This document shows positions 30,860-52,600 of a stretch of DNA of 64,000 nt, piece after piece. Every line of letters starts with the position of its first letter. Positions within the stretch are counted from its first letter, which is position 1. This DNA comes from Rhizodiscina lignyota (Eukaryota). Both the position numbers and the translations under genes were made by a program. The notes under the pieces are model-generated. The model had not been told where the DNA came from, made no database searches, and saw nothing but the letters and a program-made list of their open reading frames with translations. The stretch spans positions 806,001-870,000 of the forward strand of contig ML978128.1 in NCBI GenBank assembly GCA_010015805.1. The letters are read 5' to 3'.

Positions 30860-31410
30860 TTTGAAATGAGCAACGGTAAGCCACATAAGAGCTCGTATTC
30901 AAAGGCCAGCGGCTAGATACTGTGGCATGCTGTGATTCGTGAAACACATTCTTCTGTCGTTCTGCTATGTAACCCGTAAGCGCAATCCGAAGCCGTGAAG
31001 TCCGTAGCTCGCCGGCTCGCCAATGATGTGTGAGCAATGGTTTGATTATCTTAGGAGTGAGACAGAAGTTAGAGATACGGCCACTCTAACTTGTGGCGAG
31101 AGAAAAAGAGATTGTATTCGACAACCAGCGCATATACACGTTCATTTAGCATTGGATTTGTAAAACACCTTCTCCTAACGTTTGCGATACAATCTAGAGG
31201 CGTAATCCGAAGCCATAAAGGCCATGAATCGTGGCTTGCCGACTGCTGCGCAATCGACAGTCTCATTATATTAGGAGTGAGAAGGACTTAGAAACATTAC
31301 CTCTCCAGCTCAACGAAAGTGCGAAGGAACTTGTATTCGATACCTAGCACTTACATATATTCGCTTACTAGTGAATTTGTGCCAGACTTATTTCCGCCGC
31401 TATGCTACGT
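30860..31410. repeat. Degenerate tandem array of a ~220-bp unit (locus 1; about 2.5 copies)
   Basis: AATCCGAAGCC at 30984 and 31204; TTAGGAGTGAGA at 31051 and 31271; TTGTATTCGA at 31112 and 31331, with a degenerate copy at ~30892. Periods are 219-221 bp. Confidence 0.85.
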
Positions 31411-32011
31411 ACATATGCTAGAATGGGATTAAAGTGATACATGCGGACACAGTTGCGTAAGTCGTATCTGAAGATGCCTCTTCTCCCAGAATTTGGCAGG
31501 CTCAAGCACCTGTGATGTATATTAGAAGAAATGTGGGAGAGTGGGGGAGATATATAGTCACGACGGGGTGGGCTTGGCATGGCAAGGGTGGTCATGCGGC
31601 TCTGCTAGGCCCCTGAAATGCCAAGACTCGTGGCCGCACGGGCCATAGACCCTTCCCCATATCTCTGCCATCCAGCCATCTTCATATCATTCATTCTAGG
31701 CACTTTCACGATACCATAAGACCGAGTCATAAATCTCCGCTTGCTGTTTGATTCGGTGAGATTTGTAGGAGGCTAGCTAATTGTGCAATTTCAGGATCTA
31801 GATCGCTCAAATGCAGGTACGCTGGTGTGGCTGGTCCCAGCCTCTTGCTGGAATCCAACCACACCACCAGCCTTCTTTTTGCGCCTATATATTCAAAACC
31901 CTTGCATGAGATCTTCTTCTCAGACAACTGCAGAACAATTATCTTTCTCTTGCTGACATTTTGAGATCAACTCCTCTGCAACTTCAGTTCACCGTGACAA
32001 ATATCCTCAAG

Positions 32012-33043
32012 ATGCGCTGTCTTCTATCTATCGCTTCCTTCGCGCTCCTCGCCTCCGCACACCCTCTTCTCTCAAACCGACCACAACTTCCTCAACGCCG
32101 AAGAAGTCCACAACCATACTCTGTCGTCAATGTCGATGGCAGCTCAGATTCAGAGCCGACATCTGGACCGACGACGATCGTAGAAACTGTTACCGTCGAC
32201 TCTCCCAAAGCGACAGAGACAGAATTCAGGACGAAGACTGCCAAACTTCCTCCCGCTACCCACACCATCATCACCACACTTGTCCTCTCCTACGAAGAGT
32301 CCGTAACGACAGTTGTCGTCACCTACACACAACCGCATGCCGCGATCAGCACATCAACTCTCGTAGCAGACCCGCCTCCATACACTGTGGACTCGTCTTC
32401 CCCTACAACAGTGACTGTCGTCTCAACAGAGTCAACATCAACATCGTCGACTTCATATTATGACGATGGATTGTGGCACACATTCTATCCGGTCAAGGAC
32501 TTTGGACCATCAACCACATCCTCATCCTCAACATCAACCTCATCCTCATCTTCTCCCGCCGCCGCGACTCCTCCATCGAGCTCGTCGTATTCCTCCAAAC
32601 CTACTATCTCCTCCCATTCCTCTGCATCCTCAACATCCGCAACCGCTCCTTCAACATCACCTTCCGCGTCTCTGAGCACAACCGAAGCTCCCCTTCCCGA
32701 TGCGTCGGACTCTATTCCTGCCACTACGTCTTTCACTACGACGTCTACAAATGCCTGGTTCTCAGCGGCGTCTGTAAGCACACCAGCTGACTATCCTCGC
32801 TCCTCGTCCAATACGGCCGACTCCATATCCATACCTGCAACTACATCATTCACTACGACGTCGACGAATGCCTGGTTTTCAGCGGCTTCTGTGAGCACCC
32901 CCGCTGACTATCCTCGCGCCTCGTCATCGACTCCGGCTTCGGCGAACTCAACACTTTCAAAGAGAGATGTTCTCCTCGAGTACCTCGGACCCAAGAGCTG
33001 GACGACCATCTACCCTCCGCAACCGACCACAACTACTTCGTAA
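32012..33043 (+). CDS. Secreted Ser/Thr-rich protein with an internal duplication of 39-aa period
   Basis: Signal-peptide-like MRCLLSIASFALLASAHP; motifs YSVVNVDG and YYDDGLWHTFYP; SIPATTSFTTTSTNAWFSAASVSTPADYPR occurs twice (32711 and 32828). Confidence 0.85.
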   Translation: MRCLLSIASFALLASAHPLLSNRPQLPQRRRSPQPYSVVNVDGSSDSEPTSGPTTIVETVTVDSPKATETEFRTKTAKLPPATHTIITTLVLSYEESVTTVVVTYTQPHAAISTSTLVADPPPYTVDSSSPTTVTVVSTESTSTSSTSYYDDGLWHTFYPVKDFGPSTTSSSSTSTSSSSSPAAATPPSSSSYSSKPTISSHSSASSTSATAPSTSPSASLSTTEAPLPDASDSIPATTSFTTTSTNAWFSAASVSTPADYPRSSSNTADSISIPATTSFTTTSTNAWFSAASVSTPADYPRASSSTPASANSTLSKRDVLLEYLGPKSWTTIYPPQPTTTTS

Positions 33044-33428
33044 CGCTTTAACGACTTCCACGAATACGAAAATCGATCACGGCATCAAAATGAATACGCA
33101 ATGAGCGATATGTACATGAAAATACAGGATACCAGTGCAGGACACAAGAATGGTTTACGTTAAATATCCCTTTTCGATTCATGTAGATTTCTTTTGCACC
33201 CTTTTAATATGGGTTTAATGGGTCACGGGAAACGGATTATCACTACAGCAGCATAGTGCATGCGCTGAATGAAACTAGCGACGGCGCTTTTTGATCTGAT
33301 AGACTTTGTATGATACAAATAATACGATCGAATGGAATCACGCAACAATCATCGCGCTCTTACGTCTGTGATTCCCATGCTCCTAGTTGTGAGGTGTTGC
33401 CGGCTTCGCATCAGATGAGGGCAATACT

Positions 33429-34526
33429 TTAGAGTCTTCCTTTCCTTCTGTCCTCACCAATCTTCAGAATTGGCTTTAGATTCTTCGCCTGTACCCGCTC
33501 CCACAAGCTACCAAGGCCAGCCTCTTGGCCCTTCTTTTCTTCCCTCCGGAACCACTCCTCCGCGGTCTTGATTCTGTCCGGGAAGATCTGATCCAGAAGT
33601 TTGTAGTCCCGCTGAATTACGCCCGTATTCCCGCCTGAGTACTTCCACATGTTCCAAAACCCTGTGAAATTCTGTCGGAACGTCATGGCGGCTGGGTCTT
33701 TCAGGTCAGAATTGTATCCTGACGGGCGTTCGGCTGCGGCGCCCATATCACCCTTGGCCCAATAGTCCTCCAGACTGGTATCGATGTACCGGGCAGGATG
33801 GCCTGTGACCTTCTCGAAGGCCTTTGCAAGCTCATCGTAGCCGATATGATCGATGGCAACTTCCAGATCCATGCCATTGGACCGCTCGGGGTGGTCAAAT
33901 AGCCAGCGGACGTAGTATTCGCAATCATCCAGCGCAACATGCACGACCGAGCCGTTGCCCAGCGGTACCTTCCAGGTCACCACGCCATCCTCAATGGTGG
34001 GCACCATAATAGTCTGCGCCGCAATCGTCATTTCGATATACGGTCCCGTCGTGAACACCGCCGCTCCCATGCGTCCCCTATTCAACCTATTCTGCTGCAG
34101 AATCCACTCTCCAACCCGTCCCTTGCCGTCATAATGCCCAGTCCGGAACTTCGGGTCGTACCCGCTCTTCTTGTACACAAAGTCCAGGTTCCCATACACG
34201 AGGAACTTGATCCCTTCTTCCAATGCAATCTCATACGACCGGATGGCCCAGTACATCTCCGTCTTCTCGCCCGAGTTAAAGCCGTCGATGTTCACGAACG
34301 CGCCCCAGCAATCTTTGAAGCCTGCGTGCAGGTCCGTTTCCGAGGCGAACGTGCCTTCGACGAGCTCGACATTGCTGCCGAGACTGGCAAGTTGTCGGGC
34401 ACGTGCGGATGTGGAGTTGCGCGTCAGCACGCGAACGGCGTATTCGCCGTCTTTCACGAGACCGCGGATTACTGGAATGCCTTGGGCGCCAGTGCCGCCG
34501 ATGATGAAGATTTTGCGGGGTGCCAT
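33429..34526 (-). CDS. NmrA-like NAD(P)-binding protein
   Basis: Intronless ORF starting MAPRKIFIIGGTGAQG (Rossmann fold), with VRVLTR, GAFVNIDGF and HYDGKGRV. Confidence 0.92.
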   Translation of the reverse strand: MAPRKIFIIGGTGAQGIPVIRGLVKDGEYAVRVLTRNSTSARARQLASLGSNVELVEGTFASETDLHAGFKDCWGAFVNIDGFNSGEKTEMYWAIRSYEIALEEGIKFLVYGNLDFVYKKSGYDPKFRTGHYDGKGRVGEWILQQNRLNRGRMGAAVFTTGPYIEMTIAAQTIMVPTIEDGVVTWKVPLGNGSVVHVALDDCEYYVRWLFDHPERSNGMDLEVAIDHIGYDELAKAFEKVTGHPARYIDTSLEDYWAKGDMGAAAERPSGYNSDLKDPAAMTFRQNFTGFWNMWKYSGGNTGVIQRDYKLLDQIFPDRIKTAEEWFRREEKKGQEAGLGSLWERVQAKNLKPILKIGEDRRKGRL

Positions 34527-35360
34527 GGTGGTGAGTAAATCAGTACTGATCCGGACCTGAGGTTTATTTGGGATTATTGTCTCGAATCCGAAGTGTTGCG
34601 AAGCTGAGTCGATTGTATACAAGAGACAGCATTCCAAGGCCGTATATATCACGCGAGATAGCCCTCGGGCGTTTATTTGGAGTTTAGTGATCGCATTAAA
34701 CAAGGAGAGATGAATACTGAACAGAATGAAAGTTGGATACTATTCAGAGGTGAAGTCGGTGGGTGAGGTCCCATTTCGGTGCATTTTTTGATTATATGAT
34801 CAAGGCTTTTGCGGAGACGGAAACACAAAAGTGCCATTTAACGGGGCGGAAATGTAGAGGCTACGGTAGATGAACTCGGAGGGCCTTAGTGATGGCATGG
34901 CAAATGGATCCAGCTTTACTTGTACTGTTCTTGAGGCCAGATGATATTTATGTAGAAACTCTCAAATTGCATGTGATTCGATGAAAATGGAATAAGAGAG
35001 TTAAATCATATCACAGAGAAATAGGCGAGTGCCAAATGCAGAAAATGAATGTCATTAAATTGTAATTATACTGGACGGAGTCGAGGTATGGTAGATTCTT
35101 CAAGAGATAGCCTAATGTATGGAGGTGAAGTTCGAATGGGAATGTGTTTGGTTGGGTTGGGTACCCAAATCTGGGTGGCACACCCCAAAATCGGTTGATC
35201 TCCGGGTACTTCGATGCTTAAGGGAGCCTAGCTCCGTACTTAAACATCCACTCCACGTCAACGAACGCAGATCGACAATGAATTTAACAACACCACCATC
35301 TTCGCTCTAGAAGCCTATCTTCTAGGAGAAAATACTCGTGTACACTACAAAAGGCCCACA

Positions 35361-36310
35361 ATGGCATCAGATGGCAATAATGTCCCAGACCTTGCCTCCG
35401 TTCTTCAGGCTCTCGCATCGTTCACTACACCTCAACCTCCAGGCCCGCAACAACTGGCACCACAGCCGCCTCAAGAATCTACTTCCAATACCGCATTTGT
35501 ACAGCAATTGTATCAGTTGAACTCTTCTGCTGGTTCAGAAAATGCTCCGGGCTCCGGGCCGAATCTCCCGCAGCCCCGTCCGCAACAACGTGTCGTGAAT
35601 GATGTTGTAGAACGCACAAGCTCCCCGACGATTGATCCGGCCACTATCACGGATTGGAAGATGGGATTGAAATGTGTATCATTCATATCTCAAGCAAATC
35701 CAAACTTTAAAAATGCTATCCGAAAGGTTCATACTCTCTCAAACACATACCGCTACTGTGAGCTTATGGTCGAGAGCAGATGATTCATGCTCAACATCAT
35801 CACGAGAGGCTCTGGTGGGTGTAATGTCAATTCTTCAATAATCCATATATGCTAACAACTTCTGCTCAGGTATCAAGGCTTCAATGACCTGCTTGAGAAG
35901 CACGGACGACAGTACGTTCCCTGGCCTTGTTCCGGCTCGAACCCCCAAGATCTAACTCAGATAACGCAGGATTCCCGAGGACGGTCCCGTAAATGTACTA
36001 ACTCTATCATAGCTCGTGAGGCTAGAATTTGCGCTAATGACGATGCCAGATTGATGATATTGACGAGGCGAAAGCATATGTTTCGAAAGTGCATATGGCA
36101 GCAGTAGAAATGCACACGGCAATGACCGTAGAGCTGAAGGTCCTTGGAGTTCCTTTCTTCGGCACCAAACCGGAGCACGTTAAAAGAAATGGAAATAGAG
36201 AAGTCAGTCAAAATGGGGGCTCTCTCACAAATGGAGTGAAAATAACAGAACGGGAACTGCTCGATCTCCAACGCAAGATGGTGCAGTATCTGGAAGACAT
36301 GTACGGTTGA
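35361..36310 (+). CDS. DUF2458-like uncharacterised protein
   Basis: Exons 35361-35726, 35780-35814, 35870-35911, 35970-35988 and 36050-36310 splice into one frame. Motifs IDPATITDW, QHHHERLW, ELKVLGVPFFG and LQRKMVQYLEDM. Confidence 0.8.
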
Positions 36311-36653
36311 GCGAGGGATGGCTCATAATTCCCACATCAACTACACACTTGTCTTAGACTTGTGTTTCTGTGGCAGTATATGTCAATACGCCGACACTTT
36401 GTGTTGCCCCGATCAAGCACCCGGTCGACGGAGCAAGAGGGTATCATTAGCTTTTCATTGAGCATCTGGCTCACGTATGATTGGCCAATTGGTGTCTCGT
36501 GGTCGCACTAGCAATTTGAGAGCGGTGAAGGGGAAATTAAATTTAAGATTGGTTCAGGTGGCAAATCTCGTCGCGGAGCACACGACAACAAAAACAAGCG
36601 GCTAGCGCGAATAGCAACCCCACTACTATATAAACACGGGGGCCCCCCGCGAG

Positions 36654-36684
36654 CTCTCTCTCTCTTTCTTTCTTTCTTTCTCTT
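36654..36684 (+). repeat. Pyrimidine microsatellite (CT)n(CTTT)n
   Basis: CTCTCTCTCTCTTTCTTTCTTTCTTTCTCTT lies just downstream of TATATAAA (~36627) and upstream of the Cys-rich gene. Confidence 0.8.
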
Positions 36685-36803
36685 CATTCTCACAACAACA
36701 AATCGGTTGCTGATCGACCAACTTGCTCACACCGCTGCTGCTCACTCGCTTCACTCAAATCTTTGATCAACAAGGCATTCACTTCAGACTACGCGCCTTC
36801 AAA

Positions 36804-38326
36804 ATGGGCACTCTCTTTTTGATGCTGTTCTTCAGCGTCTTCCTTCTCTGCACTGCCACTGGTAATGGCGTTGTTGCCGTGAAGAACGCGGTCACCACCG
36901 CTGTTGCTACCTTCACTCCTGGCCCTCTCTACTTCCACCCGGTCTTTTCGGGCAAAGATGTCGCTTATCAGTCCAACACCTGCCTTTCTCATGAGAACGC
37001 TTGCGGCTTCGGATGTTGCCCTGAAGTAAGTCAATTTCATTCACTCGGAATACTTTCACACAACACGATTGCTAACGCCGCACAGGGCTCAACCTGCTAC
37101 AACAACGGTCAAGGTTGCTGTCCTGATGGGTGAGTCTTTTCTCCAAGTGGTCTCTTTGTTCAGACAATACTACTCTCATGTACTTTAGCGCCGCCTGTAC
37201 CAAGTCTCACAACAAAGCGATTCCCTGTGTTGCCAGCGCCGCTTCGCAGTGCGGCGTGTCCCCTGAACCTCGCAGCTGCTGCCCGGCTTCCGCCCCGCTC
37301 TGCATGTACGCCCACAACTTCGGCCGTGGCTGCTTTGCGAACCCCATCTCGCCCAAGACGACACATACTTCCGACAAGGAGCTCATGGCACGCGCAACCA
37401 CGGATGAAGGCCATCCTACTGCTGCACCTCTCATCTTCCACCCCGTCGTCCACATAGGCAATACTACGGAAATCATCAACACCTGCATTGGCAATGAGTC
37501 CAAGTGCCAGAATGGATGCTGCCCTGCGGGTACATACTGCTTCACTCAAGGCGAGGTGCCTGGTTGCTGTCCAAATGGGTAAGCACGCACGATCCCTTGT
37601 CGTTGACACAGTACTTACCTTTTTTCCAGAACCGATTGCCATATCCCAGACGCCGCACACTACTGTGCCCACGCTGTCGATCCCGCATGCACCACCGCTG
37701 ACCCTACCTGCTGCCCGAGCAGTGCTCCGACCTGTGCTGCCGCTGTCGGCTTCGGTACTGGCTGCATGGCTCTGCCTACGATGACCACGACCATCAATAT
37801 CGCTGCAATGACCTCTATCGACCGTCCAGTGCCGCGCACTGTCGCTCTCACGCCTCGCGAGGCCGTTGCAGCCGTCCTGTCTCCCACACCATCGACTACG
37901 TCACCAACTGTCACCAGCATGGCTGCCACTGCAAGGACTGGACACTGGACTACCCTGACCACATACTCCAATGGTCTTGTCCTCATCGCTACTATTAGCG
38001 ATACCACAGTCACGGTGTATCCAAGCACATCGTCGTCCCACCCGTCCAGGTCTGTCGTTGTGAGGACCAGCACCATTCTGGTGCAGCCGACCACACTCAC
38101 CGTGACAGCGACGAAGGCATCCCTGGTCCCCACCACCCTGACGTCGACAGAGGTGGTCACAGCGGTCGGCACGGAGTCCGCTGCTGGTGGCAACATGTCG
38201 TCATCCTCTGCTCCGACTTCGGTGGCCGTGACGCTTGCTACTAAGCCCTCAGAGGCTAACCGGGTCGGTGCTGGCGTTGGAGCTCTGCTTCTTCTTGTTC
38301 TTGGCTTGTCTTCCCTTGTTCTCTAA
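36804..38326 (+). CDS. Secreted, probably GPI-anchored protein with two tandem Cys-rich modules and a Ser/Thr stalk
   Basis: Exons 36804-37025, 37086-37129, 37189-37578 and 37630-38326. Signal peptide MGTLFLMLFFSVFLLCTATG, repeated GCCP motifs, Thr-rich region and hydrophobic C-terminus SEANRVGAGVGALLLLVLGLSSLVL. Confidence 0.87.
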
Positions 38327-38537
38327 GTTCTCCAATGGAGAGCTTCACTCTCATTGAATAGGTAGTTTAAATAGCTTTCAACAATGAAAGAATACACCTT
38401 TTCTTTACCCTATTATAGCTTGAATACTTGCGCAAATTGAAATCATGTGACTTATCCCTGGTTGTATCACGTGCTCTACCCCTGCCAAGGCTCCGCCGGT
38501 TCTCCCTCGTTTTCCTCTCTTGCCCAAACTAAAGACA

Positions 38538-38800
38538 TTGTGTTTATCTTCACGTTATAACTCCTAGTGTAATCATATCGTTGCTCGGGCAGCAGTCAGT
38601 AAACAGGTTGTTTACTGACTTGGTGGAATGAGAAGCTGGCATTACGGTCCTGGACATAGTCGTACAGCGGCCCATAGTAACTCTCTTCTCTCTATTGTCT
38701 AAGCTAGAGAGGTTGTATTTCTCTCTAAGCTGTAATTCCTGGTATAATCAAACCGTTGCTCCGGTAGCAGTTGATAAGAGGCGTTTGTGGACCTCATGAA
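38538..38800. repeat. Two partial copies of the same ~220-bp unit, inverted relative to loci 1 and 3 (locus 2)
   Basis: ATAATCAAACCGTTGCTC at 38744-38761 is the reverse complement of GAGCAACGGTTTGATTAT, 17/18 identical to 31032-31049. A second degenerate copy GTAATCATATCGTTGCTC is at 38569. Flanking AGCTAGAGAGGTTGTATTTC also aligns to the locus 1 unit. Confidence 0.75.
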
Positions 38801-39799
38801 CCTCCGCCTTGATAAGAGGGAGAGAGCGGAGGGGATGGGGACGACAGCTCAAAATTATCCGAGGCGCGTATATCTAATGCAACTTGATCCTCCAGCTGAG
38901 CCGCTCGATATGTATCCAATAAGGCTAACGCTGGCAGGATCTACAATATGCATATGCACGATGCGGCAACGCACCAATCATGCTTCCCACCAAAAAGCCA
39001 CTTAATGAGCGAATGCACGATGCGGAGGCTGGGAGGCAACAAATAGATGTCAAGAACTTTATTTGAGTTGCAAACGTTGTGGTTCCTATGACTGCCTTCG
39101 ACTGAGGGTGGAGCGACACTTAGGTGTACAATATTGATTTCTGCTGAACAGTGCAGATTCGAAGAATTGTCGAACCTGGCAAGATAGGCCAATAAGCAGT
39201 CATTAGACACATGTCGCGAGATCATACCTTTCAACTGTCGAATTCTGTGAGCTCTCTCGTAAGAGCTCCCCCTCCAGCACGTGTACGCACCGGCCTGACC
39301 GTTGAGTCTCAACTGGAGCAATTTGAAATACCTAACTGCTATTGCACCACATAACCCGCAGTCTTCTTCACTATGCCATGAATTAGATCGTGGGGCCGAT
39401 TTCGCTAGCTCTTGCCCATCCTCCTACAAAACCCATCGTCGTCCTACTCGAAATCCTTCTCTTCTTCACCAACACTAGGCGTTTCAACGAGAACAAAGAG
39501 CACACAAGAAACTCCACAATTCCATTGAAACCAACACAACTTCACTTGAAGGTCATCGAGCTTCTTCTACTGTATTCACTCAGCGAGCAAAGTTCTTCTT
39601 ACAAAGTTTACGAAGCTTCGAGACTGGAGGAAGAGCGTCACCGTCAACCTTGTGCATATTACTAAGCCGCATTCTGACGTAGAAACGCCAAGAAACGCCA
39701 AGAATTGCTCTCCGGGAAGACAAAGGCACCCGCACCTCAGCCCGCCTCTTTGTCTTCTCCACCGTCATCGTCCCGTCGTCAAAGAACATCAATATCGAC

Positions 39800-40873
39800 A
39801 TGGCGGCCACGCAGATGCTATCTCCTGGAGAAGTGCCCTCTGTGGTACCAGAGGGCGATGGCGCATGGCAGCAAAACCTCAATATCCACATGGTCTGCCC
39901 CGAATGCCAGGAAGTGCCGCCTAACATCGTCGAATCGTACACGGACGGCGATGTCGTCTGCGGCAGCTGCGGCCTTGTGTTGAGCAACCGGCTCGTCGAT
40001 ACACGATCGGAATGGCGTACCTTCTCCAACGACGACGGCAAAGACGTCGACCCCTCGCGCGTGGGCGACGGACCCAATCTCCTCTTGAACGGCGATCAGC
40101 TTGATACCCGCATCGCGGCGAGTGGAAACGCGAAGTCGAGGGAGCTCCAAAGGGCACAGGGGAAGACAACGGCAGACAAGGCAACCAAGGGCTTGATGAA
40201 GGCGTACGAAGACATCAGCATCCTGTGCGAGAAGAAGGGCTTCACAAAGCTGGTCAGCGATTCGGCAAAGCACATCTACAAGCTCATCGACGACGAGCGC
40301 GCACTGAAAGGCAAGAGTCAGGACGCCCTCATCGCCAGTTGCATCTTCATTGCCTGCCGACAGAACAATGTAGCCCGCTCCTTCCGCGAAATCACAGATC
40401 TGACGAGAGTGCCGAAGAAGGAGATTGGCAGGACCTTCAAGACAGTCGAGAAGTTCCTGATCAACTACAATCAGAAGCACAAGGTGCAAAACACTGGAGG
40501 CCTCGTTATTTCCAATCAAGGCTACCGCAATACCGAGTCGAGCAAGGCTAAGGATGTCTGTCGTCGCTTCTGTGATCAGCTCCGACTCAAGCCGAACACC
40601 AGCTACGTCTGCGAGGAGGTTGCGGAGAGGATGAGCGAGACGGGATCGCTGGCTGGACGCTCCCCACTGTCGATCGCCGCGGTGTGCATCTACATGTGTT
40701 CAGCGGCCATGGGTGTGCCGAAAACACCAAAGGAAATTGGTCTGGTCTGCGGCGTCAGCGACGGAACAATTCGTTCGGCCTACAAGGGCTTGTACCCGGA
40801 GAGGGAGCAGTTGATCGACGCGGCGTGGTTGGAGAGCAGAGGAGGAGACATGTCCAAATTGCCACCAGCATAA
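39800..40873 (+). CDS. SUA7: General transcription factor TFIIB
   Basis: Zn ribbon CPEC...GDVVCGSCGLV, B-reader VDTRSEWRTFSND, DPSRVG and two cyclin repeats (ASCIFIACRQ, GRSPLSIAAVCIY). Confidence 0.97.
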   Translation: MAATQMLSPGEVPSVVPEGDGAWQQNLNIHMVCPECQEVPPNIVESYTDGDVVCGSCGLVLSNRLVDTRSEWRTFSNDDGKDVDPSRVGDGPNLLLNGDQLDTRIAASGNAKSRELQRAQGKTTADKATKGLMKAYEDISILCEKKGFTKLVSDSAKHIYKLIDDERALKGKSQDALIASCIFIACRQNNVARSFREITDLTRVPKKEIGRTFKTVEKFLINYNQKHKVQNTGGLVISNQGYRNTESSKAKDVCRRFCDQLRLKPNTSYVCEEVAERMSETGSLAGRSPLSIAAVCIYMCSAAMGVPKTPKEIGLVCGVSDGTIRSAYKGLYPEREQLIDAAWLESRGGDMSKLPPA

Positions 40874-41710
40874 TCGGTTTGCATTTACGGGCACTTACAC
40901 ATTGCATTTTGCGGAGTATTCGGACAGGTTGAATGATACCACAGGGATCTTCTTTCATTTGCTTTCACGAATTCTTTAGCATAGACCGAGCTAACAAAAC
41001 CGGAACTAGCTCAAGGAAATCACTTCAAGTCATGTGTGCACTCTCTTTTGGCGGTCATGGTGGATCTTAAGGGAAAGTCGTCTGATAGAAGAGCTGCCGT
41101 CGATGAGGCTTCTCTCACATTTGAGCATGGAGAACGGTGAAACGGAGGAAAGCTCTTAGTACGGAGTACACTCGAGAGGCATTTGTACTCTAGCAATGCA
41201 TGAATAGAGATTAAGGATCCCTCCATATTATATGTGTTTCTCAGTGTCATGTGAGTGCAGATGGTATGTCAGATGAATCCAACTACGGCCATGGCCTTTT
41301 TGGCCGGAAGAAGACTTTCCTTGGAACTTGGTGAGATACGTAACACTGCCACACTCACGGTAGAAAATTATGGAGTAATGCAGTGGAGATAGAGTCCCTG
41401 CAGTGCTAGCGCTCGACAGTATAAGCATGCACCTTTGTGCAGATATGGTGCGCCCCGGACCGCGACCGTGTTCCAGAGCTGCACTGCCGAGCGCTTCCCA
41501 CACTTCTTACGCAGCCTGCTTCACATCACCTCCAACATGCCAGCGCTCCTCTTTGATCTACTGTATTATTAGACGCCACACTCGAACGATGTGCTACGCT
41601 CATTACCTCCCTTATCACTGACAAAGCCCAATTCTTCCGCCGACTCGGCGGCCCTTCCGCCAGCCAGCGTTGATCCCCTAAGCCCATCACTACCGCCCCT
41701 CCTTATCACC

Positions 41711-44446
41711 ATGGCCGAAGACGACTTCGCCAAGATACCCATACCGACATATGAGGAAGCTACGTCCTCTACCCCGCCGACAACTCATTACCTTGGACCC
41801 TCAGAGATCAGTGACGACGCGGAGAGACAAGCGTTCCTCACGCCGCACCCTTCGCCGGGGCCACGACCTCCTCGACGACGAAATGGCTACCACGCGCCCT
41901 CTGTGCAGTCCGTCCGCTCGAGTGAAGACAGTATAGACAGTATACTCGTTGGAAGTGATAGCGAGGAGGAGCATGAGGGCCAGGAGGACGAGGCGCTGCG
42001 GCGCGACATGGAGGAGATGGACATGGACGACGACGTCGAGGGCGGGGAGCGGAGCCGCAGCAGAAGGCATAGATCAGTGTTGGGCTCACGGCTGTCGAAG
42101 CGATTCGGGCGGTGGGGCACCACGCTGTCTGAGATCCGGCTCCCGCGCGTGCCGATGCCCAGCATGGAGTGGTTGACGCGCCGGCTGCCAAACTGGAAGT
42201 GGTCGATTCCAGACCAGTACCGGCCCGGGTGGCAGCTCATCGCGCGGCTGTTTGGGCTGTTCATCGTCGTGGGGCTGCTGTATGTGCTGTTCGTGCTGCA
42301 GATCATGCCGGGCTCGAGGGGCGACTTTCCGTTCGACCCGGAGCTGCTGCGATCGTGGGCGCAGGGGCATGTTGACGAAGGGCATATACGTGACAATCTC
42401 AAGCATATCACGGGGTACAGCCATATTGCTGGGTCGGAGGGCGATCTGTACCTTGCGAGGTGGATTGAAAGCGCGTTCCGTGGTGCGATGATGGACGACG
42501 TCCATACCACCGAATACGAAGTCTACCTCAACTACCCAAAGCCTGGTGGCCGACGAGTCGCGATAGTGAGCCCACCACAGCTAGCGTGGGAGGCTAAGTT
42601 GGAAGAGGAGAGTGCGTACGAGCATCCTACAGCGCAGCAGGAGAATACGCTCGTATTCCATGGACATTCAAGGGCAGGCAATGTCACTGGCCCATTAGTA
42701 TATGCGAATTATGGCAGCCGGGAAGATTACAAGAGATTTCACGACAACGGAATAGATCTTAATGGCACAATTGCTTTGGTACGATATTACGGAACGCAAG
42801 GAGACCGAGCTTTGAAGGTAAAGGCGGCTGAGGAGTGGGGAGTTAAAGGGGTCTTGATATACTCGGATCCACAAGAGGATGGATTCGTCAAAGGAGAACC
42901 GTGGCCGAAGGGAAGATGGCGGCCTAGTGATGGTGTGCAGAGAGGCGCTGTGAGCTTGATGAGCTGGGTAGTTGGAGATGTTCTCACCCCTGGACTGCCC
43001 GCCCACAAGGACACCCCGAGGATTAGTAAAGACAACAACCCAGGACTGGTCAATATCCCAAGTCTGCCACTAGCTTGGCGGGATGCACAAAAGCTGCTTC
43101 AATCGTTGAAGGGACACGGAGAAGAAGCTCCGCACGAGTGGGTCGGCGGAGTACCTGACGTGAAATATTGGTCAGGCGACCAATCCAGCCCTGTCGTCAA
43201 CTTATTGAACGACCAGGACGAGAATGAGAGGCAGCCGATTTGGAATGTCATGGGTGTCATCGAAGGCATCGAGCAGAAGGAAAAGAAGGTCATTGTCGGA
43301 AACCACAGGGACTCGTGGTGCTTTGGCGCAGGCGACCCTGGAAGGTAAATTATGCAATCGTACTTATATCACAGAAATGCTGACCTGTAAAGTGGAACGG
43401 CTATAATGCTGGAAGTCGTCCGGGTCCTTGGCCAACTCCGATCTCAAGGCTGGCGACCCTTACGCTCCATCGTCTTCGCATCTTGGGATGCCGAGGAATA
43501 TAACCTCATTGGTTCCACGGAGTACGTGGAAGACAATTTAGAATCACTCCGAAACGATGGCATTGCATATCTCAATGTCGATACAGGGGTGGTCGGCGAC
43601 GACTTCCGCGCGGCAGCATCTCCTATTCTGAAACAAGCACTTACTCGCGTCCTTGGTCGCGTAGGTGATCCATTTAAGAATGCCTCGCTCGGGGAGCTTT
43701 GGCAGAAAGAAAAGAAGAAGCTTGACGGGCTTGGTGCAGGCAGCGATTACGTTGCTTTCCAGGATATGGCTGGCGTATCGAGCATTGATTTCGGCTTCTC
43801 GGGCGAGGGATACCCGTACCACTCCTGCTACGAGACCTTTGAGTGGATGGAACAATACGGCGATCCAAAGTTCCTCTACCACAAGGCCCTCGCCCAAATC
43901 TGGATCCTTCTCATCCTTGAAGTGGCGCAAGAGCCACTCGTCCCCTTCGACCTCCGCCACTACGCACTGGCGATGAACTCATACCTCGTCCACCTCGTGA
44001 CATATGCAGAGAGACATGGATCTCCGAGCAAGGAACAGTTTAACCTCAAACCCCTCTTCGAAGCCGTGGGCCACTTCAGGGAAAAGGCCAAAGAATTCCA
44101 CAATTGGGACGACGCTTGGTTCGGCACGGTCATCGCAAACAACGGCTTCGAGAGCACGGCGATGACAATGCAGAGATATTGGCATAACGATCGCATTTCG
44201 AACTTCGAGGCGGACTTGCTAGATCTCCCGAGGGATAAAGATGACCACGCACAGCATGGCGTCCCTGGAAGAGAGCAGTTCAAACATATAATATTCGGCC
44301 CACAGAAGTGGAGCGGGTATGATGAGGCGTACTTCCCGGCCATTGTCGATGCCATCGACGAAGGCGACTGGTCGAGCGCACAAGCGCAAGTGAAAAAGGC
44401 AGCAGGGATAATCAGGCGAGCTAGTGACAATCTCACGAGGCCTTAG
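41711..44446 (+). CDS. M28B glutamate carboxypeptidase II / transferrin-receptor-like membrane peptidase (Vps70/Tre-like)
   Basis: Exons 41711-43344 and 43393-44446 (intron 43345-43392). One TM helix, a PA domain (GPLVYANYG, GVLIYSDP), metal/catalytic motifs GNHRDSW, GAGDPGSG, WDAEEY and YHSCY, and a TfR dimer domain (FKHIIFGP). Confidence 0.93.
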
Positions 44447-44499
44447 AGACGGGCCGTGGCGCATTGGGGGAGCGTGCATTTGTATATATCGATATCCTA

Positions 44500-45440
44500 T
44501 GTTGATCAATCGGCCTGGTGTGTTCACCTGCTATTGGATTTGTGGGAGACCTTCTTCTACCGTTTCACACTGTAGCCCGGAAGTACTCTCCGAAACAGTA
44601 AAGTCCAAGACAGCCAACTTACCGAATGTTGTCTGAGGGACGGTTTGAATATGTCGAGAGGTACAGCGTAGAGGGGGATACGACTTTGCCAGCTTGCACG
44701 AGAGAGTGAAGAGGTTATAGTGACTCTCCCCAGCCTAGAGTGTTCGCCTGCTGTTGGATTTGTGACTGTACTTTTTCTGCCGCGCTGGCCTTCGGCACGG
44801 GCACCGGAAGACCTAAGGCCGTGCTTGCGGCACGGCCGGTACAGCTTGAGCGACGTACAGCATACTCTTTCTCACAGCGCGACCACTGCGACTTCTGCAG
44901 GCCTGAACGTATGGCATGTGCTGCCACGCTAGCAACAGGCTGTGGAGGATTGCGATCCTCCTCGTAGATGTCTATTGGCTCCTCGTAGATGTCTATTGGC
45001 TCCTCGTAGATGTCTATTGTATTTCAACCCCTCAAGAAGCATTCATCCGTTTTAATGGAGTGGCCTTCTGTTGCTTCGTGTAAGAATTTATGTAGTCGTC
45101 GTTTTTCTATTTGCGGAGTAGCGTAGTTTGCAATTAGCGTATGATAGTACCTACAATTAAGAAGTCCGTCCAGGAAGTAGTGCCTGGGACTAGATGTGAT
45201 AGCCTTCTTCTACCGCTATGCGACTCTGTTCGGGACTACAATCTAAAGTTGCGAAGTCCGTAAACGCATACTCCGCGACTGTTACGAGAGCAATAGTTTG
45301 ATTATGTTGGGAGGTACGGAGTCCGGTGAAATACGACTCAGGCAGCTTGAATAAGAGGCGAAGGAGGTTATTATAACTACCATTGACCTAGTGTATTCGC
45401 CAGCTGTTAAATATATGATAGACTTTCTTCTCCTGCATTA
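44500..45440. repeat. Degenerate copies of the ~220-bp unit (locus 3; sub-arrays ~44500-44790 and ~45185-45440)
   Basis: TTGGATTTGT at 44534 and 44754 (period 220; also at 31152); CCTTCTTCTACCG at 44550 and 45203; GAAGTCCGTA at 45253 and 30997; GAGCAATAGTTTGATTAT at 45288 versus 31032. Confidence 0.85.
44958..45019 (+). repeat. Perfect minisatellite, 21 bp x3 (CTCCTCGTAGATGTCTATTGG)
   Basis: Two exact copies plus 20/21 nt of a third, read directly. Confidence 0.97.
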
Positions 45441-45832
45441 CAACTACGTCCAGAAGTGTGGAAAGCGTCGGAGGACGTTCTGGGAGACGATGCAATTTAG
45501 AGTTGCTCGAAACAACGGTTCTAGGTGCAGGGGAACGGGAATACGACATTAGGGATGCGCTGAGATATGGTAATCGATATGATCTATATCGCGAGTGGAG
45601 GATACTGCGTTAGAGGTCCGCGCTCCAAGGGATACGTAAACAGGAGAGCTTTGTAGTCAACAGTCGAGGCATTGTGAAAGACATGATTGCTGAAGTGGTA
45701 AGATAGGACGATCTCTTGCAGGTTGATATCTAGGTGGAAGAGAGCGATAATTAAGCTATGTGGTATCGATAGTTTCAGATCATGAGATCCATGTTCTAAT
45801 ATTCAAATTTGCCGCCCAAGAAGACTCCAAAA

Positions 45833-47428
45833 TCAAACGGTAGCATCCTTAGTCGTCTCATGACCTTTCTCCAGCTCCTCCATCGTTTGAAGAGTCACCG
45901 AAGGCATTGTCCTTGCCACTTTGACAACATCGAGCGGACTCTTGGCGGTCAGGAAAACGGCATCCATGTCTTCCAAAGTGCGGTTCATGGTTTCGGGGAG
46001 GAAGAAATAGATGACTGTTGAACACATTAGCATGTAGAGCATAATTGTTTGAGTGGCGGCCTTACTTGGCAATAACAAGCAGAGGTTGATCACTGCAAAG
46101 ACGATGAAGAATTTGTACCCAATGGTGGTAAATCCGGTTGGTGTCACTTCGACGACCAAGAAGTTGAAGGCCCATAGCGTAGCTGTCGTCAGCGCATAAA
46201 TTGGTACCCTGTAAGCCAGTGGAGCCACTTCCGTCCCGTAGAGGTAATTTATGCCCAGAGCACCAACACCGAAAAATGTAGCGATGAGGAAGACGCATAC
46301 GCCCGCAACGATTCCGCAAGCCTTGTTGGTTGCTGCTGCCGATACCGTTCCAGCAACAATAATAAACATGGTTCCCATTCCAATGACTCCGATCATCATC
46401 AGGAATCGCCGGCCCACGCGGTCAATCGTGTAGAAGGTAATGAAACAGCACAGAAGTTGCCATAGGTAGATCGATCCGGACAGAACGCGTGCAACGATAT
46501 TGTCTACTCCGACGTACTGAGAAAAGATGGTCTCCGTGTAGAAACCGATCACTCCGATTCCATTAATCTGCTGAGAGAAGGTGCTGAACATTGCCACGAG
46601 CGTACGGTTGAGAAGTCGATCTTCCTTGTTTGTGAGGAGAGCAGCGAAGCTCCCTTTGCCAGTTTCAGCAAGCGATAATTCCATCTTGCGAATGTCTTCG
46701 GCGACCTTCTCATCGTCTTCAGGGAGGTCCTCCAGGATAGCCATGAGAGCCTTGGCCTCCTCGATTCTTCCGTGCTTTACTAGCCAACGAGGCGAATCCG
46801 GTAGTATTGGTAAGAATATCAGCATCCAGATTGCTGTGATGATGGGAACAGCAAGCGGGAAACGCCAAGAAGACGAGTCGTCAACGAAGAACATTCCCAG
46901 CTCGATCCATTGTGATATTGATAGGCCAATGCTAGCGAAGGCGCCTTCGAGGACAACCAGCGCTCCACGATGATGAGCTGGAGACGACTCTGCCTGCCAG
47001 ACTGGGACGGTAGAACTGATACAACCAAATGCAAAACCCAGGACAAGGCGGCCGACAATCAGTTGACCGAGGGAGAAGCTGGATGAGAGAAGGATTGATC
47101 CAATGATGGTCCCAATAGATCCGAGAGCTATGGTCTTGATTCGGCCGAGTATGTCGCCCAGCTTGAAGCAGGTGAGAGCTCCAAGCATACATCCCACAGT
47201 GTAGAGTGCGACGACAGTACCCTGGATTCTCGCATTCTCCGCCTCGACACCACCTTTGGTAGTGACAGTGTCTATCCGGGGGAAAGTCTGAAGGAACGAA
47301 GTGAGATTGACAAGACCACCAAGACATGCATTGTTGTAACCCAATAGTATGTAAGCAGGCAGAACGACCGTATAGATCATGAAATTAACGAGACGATTGC
47401 CTCTCAGGCCAAGGTAAGGGGACTTCAT
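45833..47428 (-). CDS. MFS sugar porter (STL1-like hexose/polyol transporter)
   Basis: Likely start MKSPYLGLRG at 47428; intron 46065-46015. Sugar-porter motifs GDILGR, VPVWQAE, PDSPRWL, QQINGI, IDRVGRR and FFLPET. Confidence 0.93.
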   Translation of the reverse strand: MKSPYLGLRGNRLVNFMIYTVVLPAYILLGYNNACLGGLVNLTSFLQTFPRIDTVTTKGGVEAENARIQGTVVALYTVGCMLGALTCFKLGDILGRIKTIALGSIGTIIGSILLSSSFSLGQLIVGRLVLGFAFGCISSTVPVWQAESSPAHHRGALVVLEGAFASIGLSISQWIELGMFFVDDSSSWRFPLAVPIITAIWMLIFLPILPDSPRWLVKHGRIEEAKALMAILEDLPEDDEKVAEDIRKMELSLAETGKGSFAALLTNKEDRLLNRTLVAMFSTFSQQINGIGVIGFYTETIFSQYVGVDNIVARVLSGSIYLWQLLCCFITFYTIDRVGRRFLMMIGVIGMGTMFIIVAGTVSAAATNKACGIVAGVCVFLIATFFGVGALGINYLYGTEVAPLAYRVPIYALTTATLWAFNFLVVEVTPTGFTTIGYKFFIVFAVINLCLLLPSKAATQTIMLYMLMCSTVIYFFLPETMNRTLEDMDAVFLTAKSPLDVVKVARTMPSVTLQTMEELEKGHETTKDATV

Positions 47429-48110
47429 TTTTGCACGACTGGTTCTCTGGATCACCGTGATACCTGACCTCTTGAAGTAAACATGCCGGAAAAGCGGCCG
47501 CAAATGCAATTTATAGACGAATGAGGGACCAAGTTTCCGCTGGACTTTCCTGGCAATTCGCCGAGGAGACCCGGCACTCCCCACACATCTTATTGAAACA
47601 TTCACCAGAGCGGCGAAATCTGGTGTGAAACTGCGGGGAGGCGACGATCAATCTCCGTGGATTTGGGACGGACGGTGTTGTCCCGTCGATCAATCACGAC
47701 TCACGAGGCGCATGATTCATTCATAGTGCTCCGGACAACCGGAAAACGGTGAACATGTAGCTCGAGTCAGTGAGCGAAGAAAGGAGAGGAAAGTAGCATG
47801 ATTTCTTTATCACACTTACTCGGTAGAGCGTATTGCCTCGGGTTACGGAGTAGATTGGCGGTGAGGTGCAACCGGCGAAATCTTCTGCGGGAGGTTTGGA
47901 GGTCACAAAGCTGGTAACAAATTAAGCTCTTGCATAGAGCCGCGCTAGACTGTATTTGGGATGGTCAACAACCTCGTCGTATTGCTTGTGGAGCTTGTTT
48001 TTGGAGAGCCTCATTCGAACATTTCAGCTCGTCAATTTTCATTCGCAAGTCAACTCGATACGCTTCATTTTGGGACCATATTTCCGCAGCTGTGCCTTGC
48101 ATTTGGCGAC

Positions 48111-49682: not shown

Positions 49683-52600
49683 TTACTTGAAAGGCCCATA
49701 ATATTTGTGAGGATTAGGTGGAGTCAACTTCTGTTGCCAAACAGAGGCAGGGGCTACGAAACGGCCCTCGTCGCTTAATTTGCTCCTTAAATCGGCAGCC
49801 TTGGACAAAAGACCTAGCCTGGTTATCTCCTGATATGCATAATCCTCGGATGAATAACCGCGCAATTCCTGCATATATTGCCTCAGCTGTACGCGCGACT
49901 TAATGGCCAACCGTAAGCGCCTCTCGAAATCTGGACCCTCTAACGCTGACTCGAAAGCATTCCTCAACTCCCAACCACTGAACTCCTCTGTATCCAACTC
50001 CTCCCAATTGTCTATTATAGGACGAACTTCAATTATCATTCCATGATCTTTGGCCAAATCCATCAGGATGCCTTTTTTTGCATCGTTATTCAAGAGTCCG
50101 AGCTCGAGGGACATAGTGATCCGTGAGAAAACACTGTCGTCAATTATCCCTGGTCGATCGGTCGTGAGAAATACCAGGCCGCAATGCGTCTCGAGTGTTC
50201 TAAGAAGGAGCGCAAGGTTATCATCTTGTCCAGAACGCTCTTTTCGCCTTCTCAAAAATATAAGGTCGACATGTTCAAGTAACAGAACGGCGCCCCACCG
50301 TTCCGCTTGGCTTAGTATCGCTTTCAACGCTTGATCAGCCTTCAGGGTGTCTTTAACGGTATCTGCAGAGGATATGCAAATGATGGGCCGTTTAATGAAT
50401 TCAGCGGAATATTTCGCAGTAGTCGTCTTTCCGACCCCGGGACCGCCGTGGAGCAGGAATAATGTTGGAAATGAGGGTGTGTGGCCCGGCTTTGCGTAGG
50501 ACTGAATCACATTGATCACAATATCCTTCGATTCTGCAGGTAAATAAAGCCTTTCCATGGTCTCCGGATGGTACTGTGTCGATTGAAGAGTGTCTACGTC
50601 AAACTCTCCCCAAATATTATCGTCAAGACAGTAGGCTGGTATTTTTGGCGGGCAGGTAAGGGCAGTTAGTGGTTTCAGATGTGACTGCGGGACATGCCTC
50701 AGTTCCACATCAAGCTCTTGCAGTTGGCGCTCTCTAGCGGGTTGTAGCTGCTGGTCAACAATGATACGCCGACTCCTGGTAGCCGTTCTACAGTCCAACC
50801 AATGGACTTTACTGCCCAGCTCCCAATAGCGACGGCCACGTTCGATCAGCTGCCGACGGTAAAGATGCTCTTTTGGGAGATATCCTGCGGGCGTATACTT
50901 CAGATCAGTTATGTCCATCTCCCTGACAAACTGCGGTATCTTCAGATCGTAAAAGCACCTAACGAAACATTTCCCATTGTGACCGACTGCCCATGCCCTG
51001 ATGATGAGTGGACGGTATGCGGTTGGCGAGATTGGCTCCATCCCAGATAGCTCCGAAATGACGAAAGCCCGAAGGCTGCCATCTTCACGAGTATATATCG
51101 TGGAGTTCACCAGGTAAATCATTGGTAGTTCGGCGAATTGAATGACTTTGCACTTTCTTTCTTGGATCTCGACTAACTTGTGAGAGACAAGACTTAGATC
51201 GTCTTCGATGCTCGCCATCGACAGTTTCCTCTCGGGTGGATATCGTACGACAGACGACTGCGGCATTAGCGCCGAAGAATAAGCAACTGACGCTGACTGA
51301 GTATCCTGAGACAGCGATGCAGTGAGAAGGATTTTGATGAGTGAGCTGGTGTCATTCACTAAGTCGTTCAATTCTTTCAAGACGAATTCTCTTTCATCCC
51401 GACCCTCTGAATTTCCAGAAACTAAGAAGTCAATGCTGTCGATGATTATGAATGTGCACGGCGCCTCAGCACTCTTGAGACACTTTGTGAAGAGACCCCA
51501 CAGCAGTCGAATATCGCTAAGGTTTGCTCCTTTGAGGTTACCAGAAAGCTCTTCCGAGATTTCGGGACGCTGTTTCAAGAGCTGCCGAAGGAAGTCCTGT
51601 ATTAACACTCGGTAATTGCTTGGCTTTATCGATTGTCTATTGCCACAGAAGTGCCGTAGCACAACACATGTTTCGAAATTACTTTCTCCAAAAATCAAGA
51701 GCGGTGATACGAATGAGATACCGAATGTTTCTCTCTGAAGAATGTTGTTTCCATCGATCCACAGAAGCCGGGAGGTTTCCGACTCGATCCAGTCCATCAC
51801 CTTTTCGACTTTCAGAATGTTGCGCTGCGTAGATCTGTGTTGCCGCATCTCTGGTAGCTGCTCCGCAATCTTTTGTTGTTGCATGCGTGCTTCGTCAAAT
51901 TCATTCAACTCTGTGAACATCGCAGCCAATTGGCCATCCAAGTCACAGGACTCGTTTGAAAGACCTGCTGGAAGCTCACGGTCGATATAATCGTCCGTTG
52001 TCTCTTTACTGTCGACGCAATGTTGTTCTATCTGTGCTTCAATCCACCGACGGAAGAGATCACTGGTCTGTTCGATGTCACTTGGTTTCGAGAATTTGAT
52101 TGACTCTCCTTCAATAAGCTCCAGTATTTGCGACACTTTCGCAAGGACAACCTGTCCGGTGAAGTGGCTGTGAAGCTGAGTGATATGTATGATCTCCTCG
52201 TATGTTCGCTCAATTGATTGAACCACTGGTTCAAGCCCCTTCCACGGCCTCGTCATGGCTCTGAGAGTATTAACAAAGCGGTTCCTTGCGTAGAGCTTCA
52301 GTGCCTTAGCCAAGAACCTTTGGAAGGCTTCAAGGAGCCTCCCTATCGTCTCGACAAGTCTTGCGCGAGGAAAGTAAGTCGTCAAATGATCGATCATCGA
52401 GAACTTGGTCTTGATCGTTATCATGTACTCTTCAACATTCTTCTTCATTTCTTCATAGTTGACTTGAACAACAAGAAGAAGCTTGACGGCACCATATGTC
52501 AAAGCCACGTATTCCGGTGCTTGACCCACGAGCACGTCCATGACTTTTGTGTATTCATAAGCTGTCTCAGAAGCAGCTCGAAAACCACGTTTGACCATAT

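What the first reader, a model, noticed from the sequence alone, without database searches (positions are those of the whole stretch)
30860..45440. Unrecognised ~220-bp repeat family forming short tandem arrays at three separate intergenic loci, in both orientations
Seen: the same degenerate unit occurs at ~30860-31410 (about 2.5 tandem copies), ~38538-38800 (2 partial copies, inverted) and ~44500-44790 plus ~45185-45440. Anchors keep their order and spacing: GAAGTCCGTA lies exactly 35 nt before GAGCAAT(G/A)GTTTGATTAT at both 30997/31032 and 45253/45288; the reverse complement is at 38744; TTGGATTTGT recurs at 31152, 44534 and 44754. Periods are 219, 220 and 221 bp, not all multiples of 3, and the frames I translated contain stops, so it is not an intact protein repeat. 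All copies are in intergenic gaps. Inference: three loci within 15 kb suggest a genome-wide family, such as a dispersed satellite, the internal tandem array of an old non-autonomous element (Helitron/MITE-like), or a repeated cis-element or ncRNA. I do not recognise it, and I saw no TIR, LTR, TSD or transposase.
Basis: partly seen in the sequence, partly recalled or inferred. Interest (0 to 1): 0.8.

Follow-up and report, generated by a model that had tools for sequence, protein, structure and literature searches.

The report
Dispersed 55-bp fungal minisatellite family
The 220-base repeat is the local four-unit form of an old, scattered fungal repeat family built from 55-base units that share one short conserved box and sit mostly just past the ends of genes; it is probably a decaying relic, but a role as a protein-binding array is not excluded.

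Summary
The repeat is real: all 15 pairs of the six window units align above shuffles (z 7-34). It is not a stand-alone 220-bp family. It is the local 4-mer of a genome-wide family in this ascomycete (G000), built on a 55-nt monomer: a ~30-nt box (GAGCATCRATTYGATT-N5-AGRAG) plus a ~25-nt unconserved tail. I found 37 loci on 14 contigs. In 35 fetched stretches, 71 of 81 neighbouring boxes lie within 3 nt of a multiple of 55. Arrays are nearest a gene 3' end in 24 of 30 cases (background 43%), in either orientation. There are no shared ends, TIRs, TSDs, RNA covariation, Rfam match or credible parent protein. All copies found are old (60-77% identity), and the box is only slightly more conserved than the rest since the last duplications (71% vs 65%, p 0.07). 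I found no description in nine paper searches. Function is not shown.

The parts
30887..31410 (+). Locus A: about 2.4 copies of the 220-nt (4 x 55) unit, periods 219-221
31032..31061 (+). Conserved box, copy A1 (24 bits)
31252..31281 (+). Conserved box, copy A2 (11 bits), 220 nt after A1
38490..38830 (-). Locus B: two partial units, inverted, period 175 (about 45 nt lost between them)
38732..38761 (-). Conserved box, copy B1 (22 bits)
38557..38586 (-). Conserved box, copy B2 (19 bits)
44510..44783 (+). Locus C, first part: about 1.2 units, starting about 65 nt after the stop of the M28 peptidase gene; box at 44635-44664 (10 bits)
44785..44982 (-). Inserted copy of the middle of an orphan 549-codon ORF on contig C7 (G000:C7:1484496-1484700); 96.5% identical over aligned positions, 6 transitions, 1 transversion, one 7-nt gap; donor sense is the window's minus strand
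44958..45019 (+). Three identical copies of a 21-nt unit, the end of the inserted piece; present once in the donor
45020..45165 (.). Unassigned AT-richer stretch between the insert and the second part of locus C; no match elsewhere in a seed-limited search
45166..45460 (+). Locus C, second part: about 1.3 units; box at 45288-45317 (20 bits); ends about 375 nt before the stop of a convergent sugar-transporter gene
31910..33043 (+). Neighbour of locus A: Ser/Thr-rich ORF without Pfam match (context only)
37607..38326 (+). Neighbour of locus B: last exon of a Ser/Thr-rich gene without Pfam match; locus B lies 3' of it, antisense (context only)
43391..44446 (+). Neighbour of locus C: Peptidase_M28 / TFR_dimer exon (context only)
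45833..47647 (-). Neighbour of locus C: sugar transporter, convergent (context only)

Best explanation
An old, low-copy, dispersed minisatellite library. SHOWN: the building block is a 55-nt monomer with a ~30-nt box and a free ~25-nt tail; arrays come as simple 55-mers and as 110, 165 and 220-nt higher-order units; ordered multi-monomer blocks recur at distant loci at about 57-74% identity; arrays cluster locally, lie in both orientations, mostly 3' of genes, and have no common ends. The window holds a local 220-nt subfamily in which one of four slots kept the box. INFERRED: the box, whose core is an 11-nt palindrome, was the site at which copies paired or were cut, so duplications happened box-to-box in steps of 55 and a unit had to keep one box to go on spreading. 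Blocks reached new sites, often nearby, by ectopic repair or re-insertion of excised circles rather than by terminal-repeat transposition. Insertions survived where they did no harm, downstream of genes. The family is now largely inactive and decaying. The C7 gene piece in locus C is a single, much younger templated insertion at a break.
For: 71 of 81 neighbouring box distances within 3 nt of 55n, against 13% expected; 28 of 38 for distances over 60 nt (the matrix was trained on most of these loci). Held-out test: 4 of 5 loci fetched after training show a second box at 55n. Pattern search: 37 hits against 1 for the reversed control. In the longest array (about 24 monomers) the box/tail contrast was reached by 0 of 2135 uniform-rate duplication-and-decay simulations, and the conservation profile correlates with that of 36 non-seed monomers from other arrays (Spearman 0.40, p 0.003). 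In the window units the three boxless slots score poorly, but their best offset is exactly in phase in 10 of 24 cases, about 3 expected (counted by hand). Shared ordered blocks between loci. No shared flanks beyond extensions of two arrays, no excess inverted or direct repeats at 33 array ends. 12 sense and 12 antisense to the nearest 3' end. No young copies among those fetched: 60-77% between neighbours. Analogy: conserved motifs at monomer junctions in Meloidogyne satellites (PMC3694981, abstract).
Against: No step of the spreading mechanism is shown; I did not show that junctions fall inside the box. The box is still somewhat more conserved than the rest after the latest duplications (190 of 268 vs 711 of 1095, p 0.07; 0.55 vs 0.43 at lag 2 in the longest array), and indels are few (29 events per 659 substitutions); both would also fit selection by the host. 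The 3' bias (24 of 30) fits tolerance, targeting or function equally. Array ends are fuzzy at this age, so lost termini cannot be excluded. Uneven mutation rates were not modelled. No relative's genome was available.
Confidence: 0.5

Rival explanations
1. Eroded non-autonomous transposon with internal tandem repeats (Helentron-associated HINE/DINE-1 type, or DTC84/pearl-type MITE). An autonomous partner moved cassettes of ordered monomers; the box was a transposase or Rep binding site; the ends have decayed.
For: Ordered monomer variants shared between distant loci, as described for DTC84 (PMC3879986, abstract). Local clusters in both orientations. A gene fragment inside locus C. No TSD is expected for rolling-circle elements (PMC4067079, passages).
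Against: No shared termini, subterminal inverted repeats or direct repeats at 33 array ends. No transposon domain in 44 window ORFs or 54 ORFs around other loci. No Helitron_like_N match in G000, though that search had no positive control. The insert is 96.5% identical to its donor while the arrays are 60-77% alike, so it is far younger than the spread and occurs at one locus only.
Confidence: 0.24
2. Host cis-element: phased arrays of a protein-binding box, kept by selection at gene 3' ends and convergent gaps as boundary, termination, condensin/cohesin or pairing sites.
For: Box conserved across subfamilies whose other sequence is unrelated. Strict 55n phase. 12 of 28 in convergent gaps against 16% background, 1 of 28 divergent against 31%. 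Orientation-independent. Palindromic core with mirror-image base frequencies. Few indels. Precedent of a conserved box in divergent monomers bound by CenH3 (PMC8097292, abstract).
Against: Between adjacent higher-order copies the eight best box positions are no more conserved than the other box positions (49 of 72 vs 131 of 198). Individual boxes are very degenerate (9-30 bits). Only about 40-100 loci, next to unrelated genes. Three of four slots lost the box in the window's unit. Locus A itself lies in a divergent gap.
Confidence: 0.18
3. The three window loci are pieces of one ancestral array split by intrachromosomal inversions, not three insertions. This concerns the local arrangement and is compatible with the best explanation.
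For: The three loci form one subfamily found nowhere else. Their end phases are roughly complementary: A stops about 25 nt before the phase where B starts, and B stops near the phase where C starts. Inversions bounded by simple repeats are reported as common in Dothideomycetes (PMC3516569, passages).
Against: Phases match only roughly. I found no simple two-inversion path by hand. The repeats in that paper are low-complexity ones, not this kind. No synteny data.
Confidence: 0.25
4. Decayed protein-coding repeat gene (73-74 codon unit).
For: One frame reads as a plausible peptide in several copies, and third positions are least conserved there (0.58/0.61/0.52).
Against: The base period 55 is not a multiple of 3; only 19 of 81 box distances are. 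Stops in all frames. No parent in G000, no Pfam match in 9 of 9 translations. A profile search of 1.84 billion proteins gave one hit, E 2e-4, 16 residues, a nameless singleton that is itself a read-through of an unrelated-looking tandem repeat.
Confidence: 0.02
5. Repeated structured non-coding RNA or 3'-UTR RNA element.
For: Position near 3' ends; palindromic core.
Against: No Rfam match in 20 kb of the window or 8 other loci. None of 12 candidate pairs covaries in 121 monomers; mean folding z about 0 on both strands. No strand bias relative to genes, 12 vs 12.
Confidence: 0.03

Closest known systems
Satellite library of Meloidogyne chitwoodi / M. fallax (PMC3694981; abstract and outline read)
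   Same: Divergent monomer families (32-64% there) sharing short conserved motifs; simple arrays and higher-order repeats side by side; motifs proposed to drive rearrangement.
   Different: Here a fungus, monomer 55 nt, arrays of 1 to about 25 monomers scattered between genes, about 17 kb in 33 arrays. Box at junctions not shown; likeness to the CENP-B box not tested.
CenH3-associated 19-bp-box tandem repeats of Meloidogyne incognita (PMC8097292; abstract and outline read)
   Same: Tandem repeats of divergent monomers that share one box.
   Different: That box is completely conserved and centromeric. This one is degenerate and lies in gene-dense regions, several loci per contig.
Tandem-repeat-containing non-autonomous elements: DTC84 MITE (PMC3879986; abstract), HINE / DINE-1 (PMC4067079; passages)
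   Same: Short dispersed arrays with ordered repeat variants; a palindrome in each unit.
   Different: Those have conserved flanking cassettes, subterminal inverted repeats, a 3' stem-loop or a TSD, and high copy number. None was found here.
Dothideomycete tandem repeats and repeat-flanked inversions (PMC4522978 and PMC3516569; passages read)
   Same: Same class of fungi; minisatellites are counted in bulk; repeats mark inversion breakpoints.
   Different: The passages I saw describe no dispersed family with a fixed monomer, a conserved box and higher-order units. Their supplements were not opened and list unclassified families that could bear on this.

Membership tests
Satellite/minisatellite library with conserved box (Meloidogyne type) | Head-to-tail monomers of fixed length | tested here: met
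   47 of 59 single steps are exactly 55 nt; unchained test 71 of 81
Satellite/minisatellite library with conserved box (Meloidogyne type) | Higher-order repeats beside simple arrays | tested here: met
   Periods 110, 164-166, 219-222; tail identity 0.43 at lag 2 vs 0.29 at lag 1
Satellite/minisatellite library with conserved box (Meloidogyne type) | Box conserved among otherwise divergent monomers | tested here: met
Satellite/minisatellite library with conserved box (Meloidogyne type) | Box is an obligatory part of junctions between monomer types | not tested
   Junctions were not mapped; several spacings (171, 175, 201, 299) show ordinary deletions too
Classical satellite DNA | Long, abundant, homogenised arrays in heterochromatin | tested here: not met
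   16.6 kb in 33 arrays; 2 arrays in a 400-kb sample, both in the 200 kb flanking the window; neighbours 60-77% alike
Centromeric box repeats | CenH3 binding | not testable with these tools
   No chromatin data
Helitron / Helentron-derived HINE | Shared termini with subterminal inverted repeats and a 3' stem-loop | tested here: not met
   No shared flanks or excess inverted repeats at 33 array ends; ends are imprecise and old; a 3' stem-loop was not searched for separately
Helitron / Helentron-derived HINE | Autonomous RepHel partner in the genome | tested here: inconclusive
   No PF14214 match in G000, no positive control
Helitron / Helentron-derived HINE | Captured gene fragments amplified with the element | tested here: inconclusive
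   One fragment at one locus, not seen elsewhere and far younger than the arrays
MITE | Terminal inverted repeats and target-site duplication | tested here: not met
   Longest exact inverted repeat 10 nt in real and control; direct-repeat mean 5.7 in both
Solo LTR / TRIM tandem array | TG...CA ends, primer-binding site, polypurine tract | not tested
   Not examined; the 55-nt base period argues against it
Structured ncRNA | Rfam match or covarying base pairs | tested here: not met
Decayed protein repeat | Period a multiple of 3 and a protein relative | tested here: not met
CRISPR-like repeat-spacer array | Near-identical repeats, unique spacers, cas genes | tested here: not met
   Boxes degenerate; tails duplicated at higher-order lags; no cas domain in 98 neighbouring ORFs
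RIP-degraded repeat | CpA-to-TpA bias between copies | tested here: inconclusive
   Transition contexts even (CA 68, CT 65, CG 61, CC 51); window arrays TpA/ApT 1.21 vs 0.64 for the window; all arrays 0.86 vs flanks 0.73

The most novel reading that the evidence does not exclude
The arrays are functional chromosome elements: phased binding sites, 55 nt apart or at 165/220 nt (about one nucleosome repeat, recalled figure), for an unknown fungal protein that marks gene 3' ends and convergent gaps as boundaries, pairing sites or programmed recombination sites, and that also seeds the inversions typical of this fungal class.
Probability: 0.12. Interest if true: 0.8.

Novelty: new variant of a known kind. 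Interest (0 to 1): 0.46.

Why it matters
Tandem Repeats Finder reports none of the three window arrays, and seed-based DNA search finds no other copy, so families like this can sit unseen in fungal genomes. A box-and-free-tail monomer with higher-order units is known from nematode and primate satellites; I found no fungal example in nine paper searches, which cover only open-licence papers. If neutral, it is a clean record of how a minisatellite spreads in fixed steps, and a candidate substrate for Dothideomycete inversions. If the box is bound and selected, it would be a new kind of fungal chromosome element. The species is not a model organism and no function is shown, which limits the present value.

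Tried and rejected
Seed-based DNA searches of G000 with loci A and C found only themselves and the C7 donor; they are too insensitive for 65% identity. A 220-bp HMM found no strong hit in 400 kb of sampled DNA. Protein searches of G000 with two translated units found no parent. No tRNA in the window; no Rfam match. A two-box pattern gave 2 viral and 42 metagenome stretches; none of the 44 had two strong boxes (no pair with both boxes above 15 bits, most under 10), so I treat them as chance. The pattern needs exact matches and the collections hold few fungi, so this does not show absence in other species. The 273-nt period next to the C7 donor is an ankyrin gene, unrelated. The ESM Atlas gave no usable hit for the donor ORF. 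No RNA holder was listed for the region, which says nothing about expression. Intron-like, tRNA B-box and heat-shock-element readings of the box were considered from recalled consensus motifs only and did not fit; they were not tested with a tool. A motif text search of papers found nothing. Rows left out: L120 and L137 were not in the 30 arrays of the gene-context count; 2 of the 30 had a gene on one side only; monomers next to indels and the two pattern-matched ones were left out of the L134 profile (19-22 of about 25 used). Of 10 non-window hits, three are family loci; of 8 non-window hits beyond L010, all fell in or near family loci. A whole-genome profile search could not be run, so the census is incomplete.
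Full report
Setting. The window is G000:C8:806001-870000 of a 33.4-Mb assembly in 33 contigs. Pfam shows ordinary fungal genes. A protein of contig C7 is named by its source as a hypothetical protein of Rhizodiscina lignyota, a Dothideomycete by my recall.

Observation. The repeat is there. blastn links the three loci with E values down to 3e-20. All 15 pairs of six units beat shuffles at z 7.4-33.9. The quoted anchors are at the quoted places; the reverse-strand one has one mismatch. Periods are 219-221 in loci A and C and 175 in locus B. Tandem Repeats Finder misses all three arrays. Every frame has stops.

Positions 44785-44982 are a copy of the middle of an intact 549-codon ORF on contig C7: 96.5% identical over aligned positions, with a 7-nt gap on the window side, so the window copy is the derived one. 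Its last 21 nt are tripled. The donor has no Pfam match, no Atlas hit and no relative but itself among 8000 scored candidates of 301-961 residues. Contigs of run X1 agree with both junctions; this run is probably the source sample. A few similar bases on either side of the left junction fit repair by microhomology; that is inference.

The family. Seed-based searches found no other copy, so I used short patterns with reversed controls: 13 hits vs 2, 15 vs 2, 14 vs 1, 37 vs 1, 14 vs 0. The loci carried periods of 55, 108-110, 164-166 and 219-222. Cutting them gave 121 monomers with a ~30-nt box, GAGCATCRATTYGATT-N5-AGRAG, and a ~25-nt tail with at most 0.24 bits per position. Without chaining, 71 of 81 neighbour distances under 400 nt lie within 3 nt of a multiple of 55, against 13% expected; the matrix was trained on most of these loci. 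In five loci fetched after training, four show a second box at 55n and one is solitary. By hand count there are 37 loci on 14 contigs, six of them with a single box; one or two may be chance. re-found 9 of the 15 loci known before it among its 25, giving about 42, a lower bound because the pattern was built from those loci. A 400-kb sample held two arrays, both in the 200 kb flanking the window and none in the 200 kb from elsewhere; one (L045) was missed by every pattern.

Subfamilies. Ordered blocks of several monomers recur at distant loci at about 57-74% identity. Outside the box, subfamilies are mostly unrelated (z near 0), and the three window loci form their own group with weak links to L010, L086, L088 and L133. 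In the window's unit one slot in four carries the box; the other three score low but are best in exact phase in 10 of 24 cases (hand count). Arrays cluster: three in 15 kb in the window, four in about 16 kb on C6.

Constraint. In the longest array (L134) mean identity is 0.49 over the box and 0.33 over the tail. None of 2135 uniform-rate simulations reached this contrast, and the profile matches that of non-seed monomers elsewhere (Spearman 0.40). So the box was favoured while arrays grew, unless mutation rates differ strongly by site, which I did not model. Since the latest duplications the advantage is small: 190 of 268 vs 711 of 1095 (p 0.07) in pairs without a search seed, 151 of 210 vs 435 of 688 (p 0.02) in seeded pairs, and the best box positions are no better kept than the others (49 of 72 vs 131 of 198). 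Copies differ by 392 transitions, 267 transversions and 29 indel events, with no CpA bias. RIP is mild at most.

Position. With a crude hexamer exon model, 24 of 30 arrays are nearest a gene 3' end, against 896 of 2082 overlapping background windows (p 4e-5); 12 of 28 are in convergent gaps and 1 of 28 in a divergent gap. The exception is the window's locus A. Orientation is 12 sense, 12 antisense. Four of the five held-out loci are also nearer a 3' end by my reading. Neighbouring genes are unrelated housekeeping or unknown genes; no transposon domain turned up in 98 ORFs.

What it is not. No shared termini, TIRs or TSDs at 33 array ends. No Helitron Rep match, without a positive control. No Rfam match, covariation or folding signal. 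No parent protein in the genome, Pfam or 1.84 billion proteins, apart from one weak hit to a nameless repeat read-through. The one result for a coding origin is slightly lower third-position identity in one frame. No credible relative among 44 viral and metagenome pattern hits.

Mechanism. I favour a box-anchored minisatellite library (0.5): copies paired or were cut at the box, whose core is an 11-nt palindrome with mirror-image base frequencies; duplications therefore came in steps of 55; blocks moved by ectopic repair or circle re-insertion, often locally; insertions survived downstream of genes; the family is now mostly decaying. The structure is shown; the mechanism is inferred. Rivals are an eroded non-autonomous transposon (0.24) and a selected host cis-element (0.18). 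Whether loci A, B and C are three insertions or one array split by inversions is open.

Comparison with print. Closest are the Meloidogyne satellite libraries with conserved boxes (PMC3694981 and PMC8097292, abstracts and outlines) and tandem-repeat-containing non-autonomous elements (PMC3879986, abstract; PMC4067079, passages). It works like the first but is not abundant or shown to be centromeric; it lacks the ends that define the second. Passages of two Dothideomycete genome papers (PMC4522978; PMC3516569) describe no such family; their supplements were not opened. Nine searches found no description; Dfam and Repbase were not available.

Verdict. New variant of a known kind; interest 0.46.

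Noticed in passing
L096:4460-6106 (G000:C7 near 1484-1486 kb): Orphan 549-codon ORF, donor of the window insert; no Pfam, Atlas or homologue hit apart from itself.
   Followed up: partly
L095:3200-3400, L137:2180-2490, L128:430-630, L135:3090-3420, L092:8400-8520: A further subfamily with 110/165-nt periods and a variant box, 60-73% alike across five loci, which the box matrix does not pick up.
   Followed up: partly
L045:~1040-1410 and 2080-2190 (G000:C8 near 787-788 kb): Array with periods 110-111, 221-222 and 333, plus two boxes 54 nt apart, found in the sample flanking the window and missed by all patterns.
   Followed up: partly
L091:3659-3865 vs L130:2108-2294; L087:1171-1339 vs L092:9023-9189: Two more dispersed similarities (68% and 62%) near family loci but outside box arrays; nature not determined.
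   Followed up: no
window 18869-20892: HET domain split between two reading frames (profile positions 1-71 and 71-146): an intron or a frameshift.
   Followed up: no
window 49683-52994 (-): 1103-codon ORF with DUF7708, NPHP3_N, DUF7025 and AAA domains; a LysM gene lies at 53780-54844.
   Followed up: no
window 13703-13976, 15178-15268, 32508-32953: In-frame repeats of 153, 18 and 117 nt inside ORFs without Pfam match; unrelated to the family.
   Followed up: no
L080:100-380: 39-nt tandem repeat about 700 nt from a family array.
   Followed up: no
P0004: Nameless 386-residue singleton that looks like a read-through of a DNA tandem repeat with sub-units of about 58 nt; weak match to the translated box, treated as chance; its DNA could not be fetched.
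   Followed up: partly
L034-L053 (200 kb flanking the window on C8): 12 single box-like hits of at least 12 bits against 1 in the reversed control, versus 4 and 2 in the 200 kb from elsewhere: possibly more decayed monomers in this region.
   Followed up: partly
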